This document shows positions 518 through 9,447 of a stretch of 24,680 nucleotides of DNA, one piece after another. Under the pieces are notes generated by a model. The model saw only the letters and a list, made by a program, of their open reading frames with translations. It made no database searches and had not been told where the DNA came from. The translations under genes and the position numbers were made by a program. Within the stretch, counting starts at the first letter, position 1, and each line of letters opens with the position of its first letter. Source of the stretch: Granulosicoccaceae bacterium (lineage in GTDB: Bacteria > Pseudomonadota > Gammaproteobacteria > DAOVJZ01); contig DAOVJZ010000001.1 of assembly GCA_030632035.1 (NCBI GenBank), forward strand, positions 1-24,680, read 5' to 3'.

Positions 518-2827
518 ATGCGATCAGGGACGCTCGTATTTCTGGCAGGTATCCTGCTGTTTAATCAATTACCGGTATTACCGGAAGAAAATCTACGTTA
601 TTTGCTCGTGGCTTGTCTGGGTCTGGTTTATTTTCGACCAGTACGCCTGCTTGCATTGATGGGCGTCGGATTTTTCTGGATGCACTGGCATGCGGCAATA
701 CTCCTTGCCCAAACTTTACCCGTCATTCTGGAAGGTGCCGATGTTATTGTTGAAGGGGAGATAATTTCTGTTCCTCAACGCCGTGATCGGCGTACCCGTT
801 TTGAATTCGATGTAAAACAACTAACTCATAAAAACAAAGACATTCCTTTTGCAGGACGTGTACGTTTGAGCTGGTATGAAGACTATCCTGATTTAAATGC
901 GGGTGATGAGTGGCAATTTACAGTTCGGATGAAACGTCCACATGGCTTGATGAATCCCGGTGGGTTTGATTATGAAAAATGGTTGTTTCAAAAACATATC
1001 ATAGCAACCGGCTATGTGCGTAGCAAAAGTGGGTATCAATTATTAAACAGCGATCCATACCAGCAATGGATAAACCGGTATCGGCAAGATTTAAAACACC
1101 ATATCAATAACGTATTAAAGAACAATTCCTTTTCAGGAATATTGCAGGCACTTGCCGTAGGTTTGCGAGATGACATTCCACCGGAACAATGGAAAGTATT
1201 AACACATACCGGGACTAATCATCTCATGGCGATCTCCGGCTTGCATATTGGGCTGGTAGCGGGATTGATGTTTTTTGTTACACGCTGGTTGTGGTCATTA
1301 CCGGGCTTTACTGTGCTGTGGATGCCTGCCCAGCGTGTGGGTTCAATCGCTGCCATGATATCGGCCGTTATTTATGCCACTATGGCCGGTTTTTCTATTC
1401 CAACACAACGTGCCTTGATCATGTTGCTGGTCGTGTTGTTATCGCAATGGTTTTATCAACGCCGGCAAGCATCGCAGGTACTGGCGTGGGCGTTACTTAT
1501 TATCCTGATTTATGATCCCTTGTCAGCTATGCAGGCCGGTTTCTGGTTGTCGTTTGGTGCAGTGACGGTGATTTTTTATGGCATGGGTCGTCGTATTTCC
1601 TGTCTTGAACAACCGGGCATGAATAAATGGTGGTGGAAATGGGGACGTGTGCAATGGCTGGTTGCGATTGGTTTAATGCCCATTATGCTGGTGTTGTTTG
1701 GTCAGATATCAGTCTATGCGCCCGTTGCCAATCTGGTGGCTGTCCCGTGGATGAGTATTCTGGTGGTACCGTTTACGTTGCTGGGTGCTGTGTTATCAAA
1801 AGCGTTTCCTTTTATGAGTACGTTGTTGCTGGAGACAGCGGCTAGTTTGCTGTCATGGCTGTGGTGGTTTTTACAATGGTTATCTGAATTACCGGGTGTT
1901 TTATGGATTCAGGCAATGCCACCTTTATGGACGGTCATATCAGGTATTGTCGGGATTGTTTTTATTCTGGCACCAAGAGGTATTCCAGCGCGTTGGTTAG
2001 GTATAGTTTGGTTGTTGCCATTGTTTTTATGGAAGCCATTATTGCCCAATGAAGGTGAGGCATGGGTAACATTGCTGGATATAGGGCAGGGTTTATCGAC
2101 CGTGGTGCAAACCCGGCATCATGCCTTGGTGTTTGATACTGGACCAAGCCGGGGTAGTTTTGATACCGGTGAGTCAGTTGTCATTCCCTTTTTGAGGCAG
2201 TCAGGGATTCAACGTCTGGATAAATTGATCGTGAGTCATGGTGATAATGATCATGCGGGTGGTACGGGGGCTATTTTGTCCATGATGCCAGTTGGGCAGG
2301 TGCTGAGTAGTGAAATATTGAATATCAATGTAGAGAGCGAGACATGTTATGAAGGGCAAGGCTGGAACTGGGATGGGGTTACGTTTCAAATATTGAACCC
2401 ACCGCGCACAAAGCAGTTCAACGGGAATAATAATTCCTGCGTATTAAAGGTGGCGGCAGGTGGAAAAAGCATTTTGATGACCGGTGATATTGGTCGAGTG
2501 GCTGAGGTGAAATTAATAAAAGCATACGGAAATGATCTCAAATCCGATATTCTGGTGGTTCCGCATCATGGTAGTACTACTTCATCCACAAGGGACTTTG
2601 TAAATAGGGTAGCCCCTGAATTTGCTCTGTTTTCAGTTGGATATCGCAATCGATATGGCTTTCCCAAGCAAAAGGTGGTCAATCGCTATCATGAGTCAGG
2701 GAGCCAAATGCTGGAAACAGCGGATCAAGGGGCGATTAGCTTCAAATTGAGTGTGAACAGTCCATTGGTAGCACGGTCATATCGTCAGTCAGAGCGACGA
2801 TATTGGCATGGTAATGCTCTGGAATAA
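518..2827 (+). CDS. comEC: DNA internalization competence protein ComEC/Rec2
   Basis: 769 aa, multi-TM; ISGLHIG competence-domain motif; C-terminal metallo-beta-lactamase motifs LDIGQG, SHGDNDHAGG, PHHGS. Confidence 0.96.
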   Translation: MRSGTLVFLAGILLFNQLPVLPEENLRYLLVACLGLVYFRPVRLLALMGVGFFWMHWHAAILLAQTLPVILEGADVIVEGEIISVPQRRDRRTRFEFDVKQLTHKNKDIPFAGRVRLSWYEDYPDLNAGDEWQFTVRMKRPHGLMNPGGFDYEKWLFQKHIIATGYVRSKSGYQLLNSDPYQQWINRYRQDLKHHINNVLKNNSFSGILQALAVGLRDDIPPEQWKVLTHTGTNHLMAISGLHIGLVAGLMFFVTRWLWSLPGFTVLWMPAQRVGSIAAMISAVIYATMAGFSIPTQRALIMLLVVLLSQWFYQRRQASQVLAWALLIILIYDPLSAMQAGFWLSFGAVTVIFYGMGRRISCLEQPGMNKWWWKWGRVQWLVAIGLMPIMLVLFGQISVYAPVANLVAVPWMSILVVPFTLLGAVLSKAFPFMSTLLLETAASLLSWLWWFLQWLSELPGVLWIQAMPPLWTVISGIVGIVFILAPRGIPARWLGIVWLLPLFLWKPLLPNEGEAWVTLLDIGQGLSTVVQTRHHALVFDTGPSRGSFDTGESVVIPFLRQSGIQRLDKLIVSHGDNDHAGGTGAILSMMPVGQVLSSEILNINVESETCYEGQGWNWDGVTFQILNPPRTKQFNGNNNSCVLKVAAGGKSILMTGDIGRVAEVKLIKAYGNDLKSDILVVPHHGSTTSSTRDFVNRVAPEFALFSVGYRNRYGFPKQKVVNRYHESGSQMLETADQGAISFKLSVNSPLVARSYRQSERRYWHGNALE

Positions 2828-7747: not shown

Positions 7748-8218
7748 ATGATCAAGGTACTTTTTGTCTGCATGGGCAATATTTGCAGATCACCAACAGC
7801 AGAAGGTGTATTTACCCATTTGGTTCAGCAATCGGGGCTGGCAGATCAGATACAGATCGATTCTGCTGGTACTCATGCCTATCATGTCGGGCATGAACCC
7901 GACACCAGATCGCAAAAGACGGCCAAAGACAGGGGAATAGACATAAGCCATTTACGAGCCCGCTGTGTTTCTGATGGTGATTTTTATGAATTTGATTATG
8001 TACTGGCGATGGATCGGGACAATTACCAGATCCTGCAGGGGGTTTGTCCATTGGGTGAGGAACATCGGCTCAAACTGTTTCTGGAATACGCGCCTGATAT
8101 ACCAGAGGATGAGGTGCCTGATCCTTATTATGGTGGTCCAAACGGGTTTGAGCGCGTAATGGATATGATCGCGATTGCCTCAGAAGGGCTACTTGCAGAA
8201 ATTCGTACCAAACCCTGA
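7748..8218 (+). CDS. ptpA: Low-molecular-weight protein-tyrosine phosphatase
   Basis: P-loop VCMGNICRSP (CX5R), DSAGT, DPYYGG general-acid motif; usual neighbour of kdsB. Confidence 0.93.
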   Translation: MIKVLFVCMGNICRSPTAEGVFTHLVQQSGLADQIQIDSAGTHAYHVGHEPDTRSQKTAKDRGIDISHLRARCVSDGDFYEFDYVLAMDRDNYQILQGVCPLGEEHRLKLFLEYAPDIPEDEVPDPYYGGPNGFERVMDMIAIASEGLLAEIRTKP

Positions 8219-8238: not shown

Positions 8239-8273
8239 AAAAAAAACGACGTAGCTAAATGGCTACGCCGTTT
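8239..8273 (-). terminator. Intrinsic terminator oriented for a minus-strand transcript
   Basis: Minus strand reads AAACGGCGUAGC-CAUUUA-GCUACGUCGUUU (12 bp with one G.U) ending in an 8-U run (plus-strand A8 at 8239-8246). On the plus strand the same stem has an A.C mismatch and only 3 T. Confidence 0.75.
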
Positions 8274-8311
8274 AACTAACCACCATTTGGGAGGGGGTGG
8301 TTGGGGATAGT
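8239..8311 (-). ncRNA. Candidate ~73-nt trans-acting sRNA with a C-rich anti-SD loop
   Basis: Promoter TTGACA(8347-8342)-17 bp-TAAGCT(8324-8319); hairpin AACCACC/GGUGGUU with loop CCCUCCCAAAU; terminator with U8; no AUG-initiated ORF of note. TSS at 8311 is inferred. Confidence 0.6.
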
Positions 8312-8318
8312 AAAGATG

Positions 8319-8347
8319 AGCTTAATATAACCTAGTGTTTTTGTCAA
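8319..8347 (-). promoter_or_regulatory. sigma70-type promoter TTGACA-N17-TAAGCT
   Basis: Consensus -35, exact 17-bp spacer, -10 with the conserved T-A---T. It points into the intergenic hairpins rather than at a CDS. Confidence 0.65.
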
Positions 8348-8402
8348 GAATACCGTAGTAATACTGGTGTTTTACAAAAGTAGTTTCCATACAAGCAGAT
8401 AC

Positions 8403-8430
8403 AGAGCCTAGGCTCTATTCCATGTATAAT
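8403..8430 (+). promoter_or_regulatory. Putative gnnA promoter: TATAAT at 8425-8430 with a perfect 14-bp palindrome (8403-8416) over the -35 position
   Basis: AGAGCCTAGGCTCT is its own reverse complement; consensus -10 lies 42 nt before the ATG; no recognisable -35. Confidence 0.4.
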
Positions 8431-8472: not shown

Positions 8473-9447
8473 ATGAATAAATTACGGGCCGGAGTCATAG
8501 GCGTAGGTTATCTGGGAAATTTTCATGCCCAGAAATATGCAGAACTGGAAGATATTGAATTGGTAGGTGTGGCCGATGCCAGTATGGAACGTGCCGAAGA
8601 GATTGCTAAAGAACTCTCAACCGAAGCATTTCAGGATTACAGTGAATTGATTTCACTGGTTGATTTGGTTTCTATTGTTGTTCCCACTGATTTACACCAT
8701 AGCATTGCACGCGAGTGTCTGAATTCTGATGTACATGTCCTGCTCGAAAAACCAATCACGGTAACGGTTGAAGAGGCAGAAGAACTCATCAAATTAGCGA
8801 ATGAACGTAAAAGAGTATTTCAGGTAGGCCATCTGGAAAGGTTTAATCCAGCCATCATGGCACTGGATGGTAAACTGAATAATCCGATGTATGTTGAATC
8901 TCATCGTTTGGCACCATTCAAGATTCGTGGAACCGATGTGAATGTGATTATGGATCTGATGATTCATGATATAGATATCATTTTGAATCTCGTGCAAAGT
9001 GAAATAAAGTCAGTCAGTGCTGTGGGTGTGCCGGTATTATCTGCTGATGTAGATATTGCCAATGCGCGTCTTGAGTTTGCTAATGGTTGTGTGGCTAATG
9101 TAACGGCCAGTCGTGTTAGTCGTGAAGGTATGCGCAAGCTTAGAGTGTTTCAGCCTGATGCCTATTTTTCTATTGATTACAATGATCGCGAAATCACGAT
9201 GGCAAACAAGAAAAGTGATGAACTGGATGAGCAGGGCGTTCCCGTTATTTCGGTTGAAAAAGAAACCTTTGAACAAGCCGATGCATTGATGAGTGAAATC
9301 AAGGCATTTATTGACTCCATCAGAACTGGTAAGCCTCCAGTTGTAAGCGGTGAAGATGGCAAACGCGCACTTGAAATAGCGCTTACCATTAACAAAGATA
9401 TCAAAATTACAAACGATGCCTCACAACTGATGGCAACATCCCAATAA
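8473..9447 (+). CDS. gnnA: Gfo/Idh/MocA oxidoreductase, probable UDP-GlcNAc 3-dehydrogenase (GnnA-like)
   Basis: GVIGVGYLGNFHAQKY Rossmann start, LLEKP, QVGHLERFNP, DLMIHDID; adjacent to a DegT aminotransferase and LpxA. Family is certain; the specific activity is inferred. Confidence 0.75.
   Translation: MNKLRAGVIGVGYLGNFHAQKYAELEDIELVGVADASMERAEEIAKELSTEAFQDYSELISLVDLVSIVVPTDLHHSIARECLNSDVHVLLEKPITVTVEEAEELIKLANERKRVFQVGHLERFNPAIMALDGKLNNPMYVESHRLAPFKIRGTDVNVIMDLMIHDIDIILNLVQSEIKSVSAVGVPVLSADVDIANARLEFANGCVANVTASRVSREGMRKLRVFQPDAYFSIDYNDREITMANKKSDELDEQGVPVISVEKETFEQADALMSEIKAFIDSIRTGKPPVVSGEDGKRALEIALTINKDIKITNDASQLMATSQ

What the first reader, a model, noticed from the sequence alone, without database searches (positions are those of the whole stretch)
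8239..8347. Self-contained candidate sRNA gene with a C-rich anti-Shine-Dalgarno loop, between ptpA and gnnA
Seen: on the minus strand, TTGACA-17 bp-TAAGCT is followed by a ~73-nt transcript, ACUAUCCCC-AACCACC[CCCUCCCAAAU]GGUGGUU-AGUU-terminator-U8. The terminator stem pairs better on the minus strand (G.U versus A.C) and its U-run serves only a minus-strand RNA, yet no minus-strand CDS lies nearby to need it. Known: exposed CCUCCC loops are the seed regions of anti-SD sRNAs (alphaproteobacterial AbcR, suhB/MmgR and cuckoo RNAs; staphylococcal C-rich-loop RNAs). I recognise the architecture but not the sequence as a named family. Inference: an unannotated, probably Hfq-type translational repressor with many targets.
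Basis: partly seen in the sequence, partly recalled or inferred. Interest (0 to 1): 0.75.

Follow-up and report, generated by a model that had tools for sequence, protein, structure and literature searches.

The report
Divergent anti-ribosome-site small RNA gene
The gap between two cell-envelope gene clusters of an uncultured sulfur-oxidising seep bacterium holds, on the opposite strand, a conserved gene for a roughly 73-base regulatory RNA, a divergent extra copy of a known RNA family thought to silence genes by covering their ribosome-binding sites.

Summary
On the minus strand, TTGACA-17-TAAGCT is followed by a 73-nt unit (8311..8239): a single-stranded ACUAUCCCC 5' end, a 7-bp hairpin with a CCCUCCC loop, an AU-rich spacer and a 12-bp terminator with U8. 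Only the terminator is strong evidence within the window. The rest rests on comparison.

- **Conservation:** the same spacer in four other species or strains of this lineage keeps the -35, a TAnnnT -10, the 5' 16 nt (one change) and the hairpin. The terminator changes by compensatory substitutions and is wholly replaced in one species.
- **Family:** Rfam gives no hit. However, a model of this RNA finds sRNAs in Sulfuriflexus and another family that RF02278 also hits below threshold. RF02278 is the Betaproteobacteria "toxic"/double-hairpin sRNA family (Burkholderia NcS27, like Bordetella S17S).
- **Reciprocal test:** a model built only from such outside members picks the window locus as the best hit in its own genome.
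- **Paralogy:** the sister species also carries the canonical copy upstream of rplM, so this is a divergent paralogue.
- **Mechanism:** pairing of the C-rich sites with ribosome-binding sites, inferred by analogy.

Expression, Hfq dependence and targets are untested. The scan has met this family before on other DNA.

The parts
8342..8347 (-). -35 hexamer TTGACA
   Evidence: Read. It is TTGAC(A/T) in all five orthologous loci and in three rplM-upstream paralogues.
8319..8324 (-). -10 hexamer TAAGCT, 17 nt after the -35
   Evidence: Matches the consensus at only 3 of 6 positions, so the scanner did not list it. TAnnnT is kept at the same spacing in all five orthologues and aligns with TAATAT/TAGAAT of the paralogues. 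The exact transcription start is not determined. An adjacent conserved GGTTATAY block could shift it by a few bases.
8303..8311 (-). Single-stranded 5' end ACUAUCCCC (site 1)
   Evidence: Unpaired in the MFE and centroid folds. There is one substitution across the five orthologues, while the 6-7 bases just upstream vary freely.
8278..8302 (-). Hairpin 1: stem AACCACC/GGUGGUU with the C-rich loop CCCUCCCAAAU (site 2, 8285-8295)
   Evidence: Folds as such. The stem core CCACC/GGUGG is invariant in 11 distinct sequences. One flanking pair switches A-U to U-A between this lineage and the Sulfuriflexus group. The loop keeps CUCC but has indels.
8239..8273 (-). Intrinsic terminator: 12-bp stem, 6-nt loop, U8
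   Evidence: Listed. Four pairs have compensatory changes among the five orthologues and eight pairs among 11 sequences. In L066 the sequence is entirely different but the hairpin and U7 are kept.
7748..8218 (+). Upstream neighbour, a low-molecular-weight protein-tyrosine phosphatase (ptpA-like), convergent with the sRNA
8473..9447 (+). Downstream neighbour, a gnnA-like Gfo/Idh/MocA dehydrogenase, divergent from the sRNA. Its conserved -10 TATAAT is at 8425-8430.

Best explanation
An independent gene makes a primary transcript of about 73 nt from a sigma-70-type promoter. The transcript ends at its own intrinsic terminator.

The RNA is a lineage-specific, divergent paralogue of the double-hairpin CU-rich sRNAs (RF02278 type). 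It presents two C-rich single-stranded sites: the 5' end ACUAUCCCC and the hairpin loop containing CCUCC.

These sites pair with G-rich Shine-Dalgarno regions of mRNAs and block ribosome binding. The AU-rich spacer plus the U-tailed terminator probably serve as an Hfq-binding module.

Shown here: the anatomy, conservation, covariation, strand and family link. Inferred: transcription, pairing at ribosome-binding sites, Hfq involvement and the targets.
For: (1) Structure. The fold has z = -6.6. The orthologues fold the same way, with z = -7.9 and -6.3.

(2) Orthologues. Five distinct orthologues sit in the same ptpA|gnnA spacer, where flanking proteins are 77-99% identical. Conservation is islanded on the -35, the -10, the 5' 16 nt and the hairpin arms. 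The discriminator and the sequence beyond the U-run are unalignable.

(3) Covariation. 95.7% of cells pair, against 23-67% for slid controls, and four compensatory pairs lie in the terminator. With relatives added, nine pairs change on both sides and 0 of 500 shuffles reach the observed score.

(4) Strand. The U-run, the promoter and most G.U pairs fit the minus strand only.

(5) Family link.
- Model R1, built from this lineage, hits Sulfuriflexus mobilis at 43.5 bits (E 5.6e-8 per genome) and G096 at 31 bits.
- Eight of R1's weak hits coincide with RF02278 hits.
- Model R2, built from 22 sequences outside this lineage, finds the window locus as the top hit of its own genome (26.4 bits, E 9e-4) and the L066 orthologue at 34.1 bits, in register.
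- RF02278 gives 20.5 bits on the L066 orthologue.

(6) Paralogy. The sister genome G001 has both this copy and a canonical copy upstream of rplM. The promoters align, including spacer bases.

(7) Published family behaviour.
- Burkholderia double-hairpin sRNAs are expressed and carry CU-rich unpaired regions complementary to ribosome-binding sites. NcS27 overexpression slows growth (PMC5688073, PMC4603805).
- Bordetella S17S is Hfq-dependent and directly represses a target through its single-stranded sites (PMC11722255).

(8) hfq is present in G001.
Against: - No transcript data exist. No RNA run holds the locus, which is neutral rather than negative.
- The -10 is weak (3 of 6).
- RF02278 does not score the window RNA at all, even in an 87-nt search.
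- Site 1 has lost the family's CCUCC.
- The loop varies by indels.
- The hairpin-1 core shows no covariation because it is invariant.
- Translation-start regions with 9 nt or more of complementarity are no more frequent than for shuffled seeds: 3 against 2.8 +/- 2.0. The 5' seed shows no bias to start regions.
- hfq was not found in this incomplete assembly.
Confidence: 0.6

Rival explanations
1. There is no independent RNA. The two hairpins are only the 3' end of the msbA-lpxK-kdsB-ptpA transcript, a bidirectional terminator next to a chance hairpin, and the 'promoter' is coincidence.
For: The terminator hairpin also forms on the plus strand, and the plus-strand MFE is slightly lower (-28.1 kcal/mol). 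ptpA has no other terminator before gnnA. The -10 is poor. One orthologue (L077) has a C.A mismatch that would be G.U on the plus strand.
Against: - On the plus strand no U-run follows the hairpin in any orthologue.
- Plus-strand z-scores are weaker (-4.6 and -3.4).
- TTGAC and TAnnnT at fixed spacing are conserved in five loci, while the sequence between ptpA's stop and the hairpin is not.
- An outside-built model recognises the minus strand, in register, as a member of an expressed sRNA family.
Confidence: 0.08
2. The RNA is made but acts mainly in cis. Convergent transcription and its terminator would insulate or tune read-through from ptpA into gnnA-gnnB-lpxA, or the RNA would pair with read-through antisense transcripts.
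For: It lies exactly between two co-oriented lipid A/LPS operons and opposes them. This placement is kept in all five orthologous loci. A conserved block at 8388-8402 sits between the sRNA and gnnA promoters.
Against: Its relatives sit at unrelated places, mostly upstream of and co-oriented with rplM, so position is not what the family conserves. Selection here is strongest on the single-stranded 5' sequence, which a purely positional role would not need.
Confidence: 0.12
3. The RNA is made but does not act by pairing with mRNA. It might titrate a protein or another RNA, or be a drifting duplicate with little function.
For: Site 1 has lost the family's CCUCC motif. The loop length drifts. Target prediction is no better than chance.
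Against: The 5' 16 nt have one change across species whose flanking proteins differ by up to 23%, which argues for purifying selection. No motif of a known RNA-binding regulator, such as GGA for CsrA, is present in the sequence.
Confidence: 0.1

Closest known systems
Rfam RF02278, Betaproteobacteria toxic small RNA, i.e. the Burkholderia cenocepacia double-hairpin sRNAs ncS03, ncS05, NcS27 (bdhR1) and ncS62
   Same: - Size of 57-92 nt.
- A CU-rich single-stranded 5' end, a first hairpin with the arms CCAnC/GGUGG and a CU-rich loop, then an intrinsic terminator.
- Several copies per genome.
- CU-rich regions complementary to ribosome-binding sites (PMC5688073).
- Linked to the window RNA by reciprocal profile searches through intermediates.
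   Different: - The RF02278 model gives no score on the window RNA.
- Site 1 is AUCCCC instead of CUCCUCC.
- The loop is 10-12 nt instead of 7.
- The host is a sulfur-oxidising gammaproteobacterium.
- The locus is ptpA|gnnA.
Bordetella pertussis S17S (PMC11722255)
   Same: About 67 nt. It has two single-stranded CU-rich sites, the 5' end and the first loop, that pair at ribosome-binding sites, and an intrinsic terminator. It is Hfq-dependent and resembles the RF02278 sRNAs.
   Different: S17S is cut by RNase E from a 190-nt precursor. The window RNA appears to start directly at site 1 from its own promoter, and its seed sequences differ.
Canonical rplM-upstream CU-rich sRNAs of Gammaproteobacteria
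   Same: They have the same hairpin arms, terminator layout and promoter type. G001 carries one beside its ptpA|gnnA copy.
   Different: They carry the core CUCCUCCAUCCUCCUUUGGUGG, often have an extra 5' hairpin, and lie 100-480 nt upstream of rplM in the same orientation.
Other C-rich-loop sRNAs: alphaproteobacterial ar14, suhB/MmgR and cuckoo RNAs, staphylococcal RsaE, Xanthomonas sX13 (the last from memory)
   Same: The working principle is the same: exposed C-rich loops that pair with G-rich translation-start regions.
   Different: There is no sequence or profile relationship. RsaE scores 17 bits and suhB 11 bits against thresholds of 79 and 41, and ar14 has no hit on the window.

Membership tests
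RF02278 Betaproteobacteria toxic / double-hairpin sRNA | Score at or above Rfam's gathering threshold (50 bits) with the family covariance model | tested here: not met
   There is no RF02278 match on the window at E up to 10 in 401-nt and 87-nt searches, and none in G000 or G001 at E up to 0.01. The L066 orthologue scores 20.5 bits.
RF02278 Betaproteobacteria toxic / double-hairpin sRNA | Architecture: a short RNA with a single-stranded CU-rich 5' end, a first hairpin with a CU-rich loop, and a terminator hairpin with a U tail | tested here: met
   Shown by the folds and the pair counts.
RF02278 Betaproteobacteria toxic / double-hairpin sRNA | Conserved core sequence (CUCCUCCAnCCUCC ... GGUGG) | tested here: inconclusive
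   The 3' arm GGUGG and the 5' arm CCACC are kept, and CCUCC is present in the loop. Site 1 reads AUCCCC, and the loop is longer.
RF02278 Betaproteobacteria toxic / double-hairpin sRNA | Detectable homology to accepted or near-threshold members by profile search | tested here: met
   R1 hits Sulfuriflexus at 43.5 bits and G096 at 31 bits, loci that RF02278 also hits at 27.6 and 28.1 bits. R2, built without this lineage, hits the window at 26.4-27.4 bits as the top hit of its genome, and L066 at 34.1 bits. E-values from these models are rough.
RF02278 Betaproteobacteria toxic / double-hairpin sRNA | More than one homologous copy per genome | tested here: met
   G001 has the ptpA|gnnA copy and a canonical copy upstream of rplM. 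The rplM region is missing from the G000 assembly.
RF02278 Betaproteobacteria toxic / double-hairpin sRNA | Expressed as a small RNA that represses targets by pairing at ribosome-binding sites | not testable with these tools
   No RNA run is listed. In-silico targets are not enriched over shuffled seeds.
Alphaproteobacterial anti-SD sRNAs (ar14, suhB/MmgR) and staphylococcal RsaE | Match to the family covariance model | tested here: not met
   suhB scores 11.2 bits (threshold 41) and RsaE 17.1 bits (threshold 79). ar14 is not listed for the window.

The most novel reading that the evidence does not exclude
The divergent copy has acquired new seeds that co-evolved with the reverse dissimilatory sulfite reductase operon. 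Its 5' end pairs perfectly over 9 nt with the dsrE ribosome-binding site (GGGGAUAGU). Its loop pairs over 10 nt with that of the adjacent dsrB (AUUUGGGAGG). On this reading it would be a riboregulator of sulfur oxidation in seep bacteria.

Both sites are kept in the sister species. The dsrE site is absent from the other lineages examined. However, this is a post hoc pick from a scan that as a whole did no better than shuffled seeds.
Probability: 0.1. Interest if true: 0.6.

Novelty: new member of a known kind. Interest (0 to 1): 0.3.

Why it matters
The result adds a well-supported small-RNA gene to an uncultured lineage of sulfur-oxidising Gammaproteobacteria that has only two species genomes in GTDB.

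It also shows that the double-hairpin CU-rich sRNA family reaches well beyond what Rfam's threshold captures. About a third of 150 sampled gammaproteobacterial families have sub-threshold but significant hits, while only one scores over the cut-off.

The family spawns paralogues with altered seeds at new loci. For annotation, this means such RNAs are missed by standard Rfam scans. For biology, a paralogue with a changed seed is a natural experiment in how an sRNA regulon diverges.

It is not a new kind of regulator, and the scan has met the family several times already.

Tried and rejected
- **Rfam** at gathering and E-value thresholds on the window gave only chance-level hits: ylbH at 19.8 bits on the wrong strand, plus RsaF and others.
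- **Genome-collection pattern scan** for the hairpin and loop found only the sister species.
- **Metagenome pattern scan** returned 61 loci. Only L015, which is the G001 species, is homologous. The rest are unrelated sequences that happen to share the two C-rich words.
- **Sequencing runs:** no RNA holder was listed in either search.
- **PtpA homologue P0004** has different neighbours (RNase E) and no sRNA. One GnnA homologue contig had no DNA available.
- **Coding reading:** the only overlapping minus-strand ORF starts inside the -35 hexamer and is 23 codons long, so I rejected it.
- **Repeat or mobile element:** rejected, because the element is single-copy in the genome.
- **Weak own-genome model hits:** one, on C252, is just a gene's terminator.
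- **Target prediction:**
  - The loop shows a modest bias to start regions: 3.3% against 1.5% of windows at -13 kcal/mol or lower.
  - The 5' seed shows no such bias.
  - Counts of perfect matches of 9 nt or more equal those of shuffled seeds.
  - A dsrB-like AUUUGGAGG site also occurs in lineages not known to carry this RNA.
- **L066-species dsr operon:** I could not obtain it to test covariation between seed and target.

Full report
**What is in the window**

On the minus strand, TTGACA (8347-8342) is followed after 17 nt by TAAGCT (8324-8319). Seven bases later comes a 73-nt unit, 8311..8239. Its parts are:
- an unpaired ACUAUCCCC at the 5' end;
- a 7-bp hairpin, AACCACC/GGUGGUU, with the loop CCCUCCCAAAU;
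- an AGUU spacer;
- a 12-bp terminator hairpin whose U-run totals eight.

The MFE and centroid folds are identical. The energy is -25.9 kcal/mol, against -10.0 +/- 2.4 for shuffles (z = -6.6). The terminator is the strongest such site in 2.5 kb and is listed for the minus strand only.

The consensus scan does not list the promoter, because its -10 matches 3 of 6. Within the window alone, only the terminator and fold are beyond chance.

No credible ORF lies on the minus strand. The neighbours are kdsB, a low-molecular-weight tyrosine phosphatase, and then a gnnA-like dehydrogenase, a DegT aminotransferase and lpxA, all on the plus strand.

**Where it comes from**

The window is contig 37 of a 258-contig, 78%-complete assembly. 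The best DNA holder is a cold-seep metagenome.
- GTDB holds one other species of the genus, titled only 'Gammaproteobacteria bacterium'. It holds nothing else closer than class.
- The genome carries dsrABEFHC, so the organism is a sulfur oxidiser.

**Orthologues**

Using PtpA and GnnA homologues, I fetched the same spacer from other assemblies. This gave five distinct versions:

| Locus | Relation to the window |
|---|---|
| window (L078 is identical) | - |
| L076 | GnnA 97% identical |
| L077 | GnnA 93% identical |
| G001 species | PtpA 90% identical |
| L066 | PtpA 77%, GnnA 80% identical |

In the full spacer alignment, conservation falls in islands:
- the gnnA -10 region;
- TTGAC(A/T);
- GGTTATAY-TA(A/G)nnT;
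- AYUAUCCCCAACCACC, with one substitution in all;
- AAAY-GGUGGU.

The 6-7 bases between the -10 and the conserved 5' end differ in every species. The sequence past the U-run is unalignable.

The terminator changes by compensatory substitutions. In L066 it is a wholly different sequence that still forms a 10-12-bp hairpin followed by U7.

On the five sequences, 95.7% of cells pair, against 23-67% when partners are slid. Four terminator pairs change on both sides.

This pattern of conserved promoter hexamers, a free discriminator, a constrained 5' end and a covarying terminator is what an independently transcribed sRNA gene gives. A mere 3' end of ptpA would not give it.

**Strand**

In every orthologue the U-run exists only on the minus strand. 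Minus-strand z-scores are -6.6, -7.9 and -6.3, against -4.6 and -3.4 for the plus strand. Most wobble pairs are G.U on the minus strand. One orthologue (L077) has a single mismatch that would favour the plus strand.

**Family**

Rfam gives nothing for the window.
- **R1**, a covariance model of the five orthologues, found one copy in the own genome. Among 150 genomes sampled one per family across the class, it found clear hits in G019 (43.5 bits, E 5.6e-8) and G096 (31 bits).
- G019 is Sulfuriflexus mobilis, identified by its L13 protein. Six of eight genomes of its order have the RNA.
- These RNAs read ACGAUCCUCCUCCACC-UCCCAAAU-GGUGG plus a terminator, close to the window's ACUAUCCCCAACCACC-CCCUCCCAAAU-GGUGG.
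- Rfam scores them below threshold as RF02278, at 27.6 and 28.1 bits against a threshold of 50.

I then searched the same 150 genomes with RF02278 itself.
- It hits 50 of them at E up to 0.01. About half of those are at E below 1e-4, but only one is over the cut-off.
- The hits share the core CUCCUCCAUCCUCCUUUGGUGG.
- Eight of R1's weak hits fall on exactly these loci.

**R2** was built from 22 of these sequences and none from the window's lineage.
- It finds the window RNA, on the right strand and in register, as the best hit in its own genome (26.4 bits, E 9e-4).
- It finds all five orthologues at 20.6-34.1 bits.
- RF02278 itself gives 20.5 bits on the L066 orthologue.

With these relatives added, one pair of hairpin 1 switches A-U to U-A, eight terminator pairs covary, and 0 of 500 shuffles reach the observed covariation.

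I conclude that the RNA is a distant relative of the RF02278 family that fails that family's formal threshold.

**A paralogue, not the family's usual copy**

In G001, R2's best hit (41.1 bits) is a second locus with the canonical core. It has its own TTGACA-16-TAATAT promoter and a 5' hairpin, and lies about 120 nt upstream of rplM.

The canonical RNA lies upstream of and co-oriented with rplM in Sulfuriflexus, in G096 and in 17 of the 20 best RF02278 loci.

The G000 assembly lacks the whole rplM region, so whether it has the canonical copy is unknown.

The promoters of the two kinds of copy align, including bases in the spacer (TACTA/T). This suggests the gene was duplicated together with its promoter.

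R1 found the ptpA|gnnA copy only in this genus-level lineage.

**How it probably works**

Published work on the family:
- The Burkholderia double-hairpin sRNAs are expressed.
- Their CU-rich unpaired regions are complementary to ribosome-binding sites, and 55-80% of predicted interactions fall at start regions.
- NcS27 overexpression slows growth, and antisense silencing speeds it (PMC4603805, PMC5688073, PMC10987360).
- Bordetella S17S is Hfq-dependent and directly represses a sigma-54 activator through its single-stranded 5' end or first loop (PMC11722255).

By analogy, the window RNA should pair through ACUAUCCCC and the CCUCC loop with G-rich start regions. Its AU-rich spacer and U8 tail fit an Hfq-binding 3' module; that rests on general knowledge and was not tested. 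hfq is present in G001 and was not found in the incomplete G000.

**Targets**

I called 1,693 crude genes in G000 and scored duplexes with start regions.
- The loop shows a modest bias to start regions. The 5' seed shows none.
- Genes with 9 nt or more of perfect complementarity number 3, against 2.8 +/- 2.0 for shuffled seeds.
- Two of the three are adjacent genes of the dsr operon. The dsrB leader carries AUUUGGGAGG, which matches the loop. The dsrE leader carries GGGGAUAGU, which matches the 5' end.
- Both sites are unchanged in G001.
- The dsrE site is absent in Sulfuriflexus, G096 and two other lineages. A similar dsrB site occurs elsewhere.

This is a post hoc lead, not a finding.

**Verdict**

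The RNA is a divergent new member of a known kind rather than a new family. The scan's earlier notes had already identified RF02278-type RNAs upstream of rplM and at other loci in other genomes. I found the same independently before reading them.

Noticed in passing
L109-L127, L086, L087, L128 (loci): An RF02278-like sRNA with the core CUCCUCCAUCCUCCUUUGGUGG sits 100-480 nt upstream of rplM-rpsI, in the same orientation, in 17 of the 20 best loci from different gammaproteobacterial families. It does so also in Sulfuriflexus, G096 and G001. Only 1 of 151 genomes scores over Rfam's cut-off. Many loci share a TATTAGA-like motif in the promoter spacer.
   Followed up: partly
G000 contig C116, 9680-9700 and 10805-10821 (L135:1681-1701 and 2806-2822): The ribosome-binding sites of the adjacent dsrB and dsrE genes are perfectly complementary to the sRNA loop (10 nt) and 5' end (9 nt) respectively. 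Both sites are kept in G001. The overall target scan is not above chance.
   Followed up: partly
L066:1567-1677 (-): In the most distant orthologous locus, a 36-codon ORF with a strong AAGGAG site was called just upstream of the sRNA. It ends inside the sRNA's -10. It is not conserved in the window or in G001. It recalls the 32-codon ORF in the long form of Bordetella S17.
   Followed up: partly
window 8388-8402: A block reading GTATCTGCTTGTATG on the minus strand (GTAT repeated after 7 nt) lies between the divergent sRNA and gnnA promoters. It is conserved in four of the five orthologous spacers and could be a regulator site.
   Followed up: no
L132:1376-1427 and 1501-1556 (-) (G001 contig C16): Two tandem short units, each with a CU-rich start (CAUCUCCU and UAUCUCCCCCUCC) and its own terminator but no first hairpin. 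They may be further CU-rich sRNAs.
   Followed up: no
L005, L022, L031, L044, L049-L051, L058, L062; and L006, L008, L011, L017 and others: Two unrelated, well-conserved metagenome sequence families share the words TATCCCCAA and CCCTCCCAAA. One follows a TATAAT-type promoter and ends in a hairpin. Neither is related to the window RNA.
   Followed up: no
G000 assembly as a whole: rplM and hfq were not found in the window's own assembly (78% complete), although both are present in the sister genome. Absences in this genome should not be read as real.
   Followed up: yes
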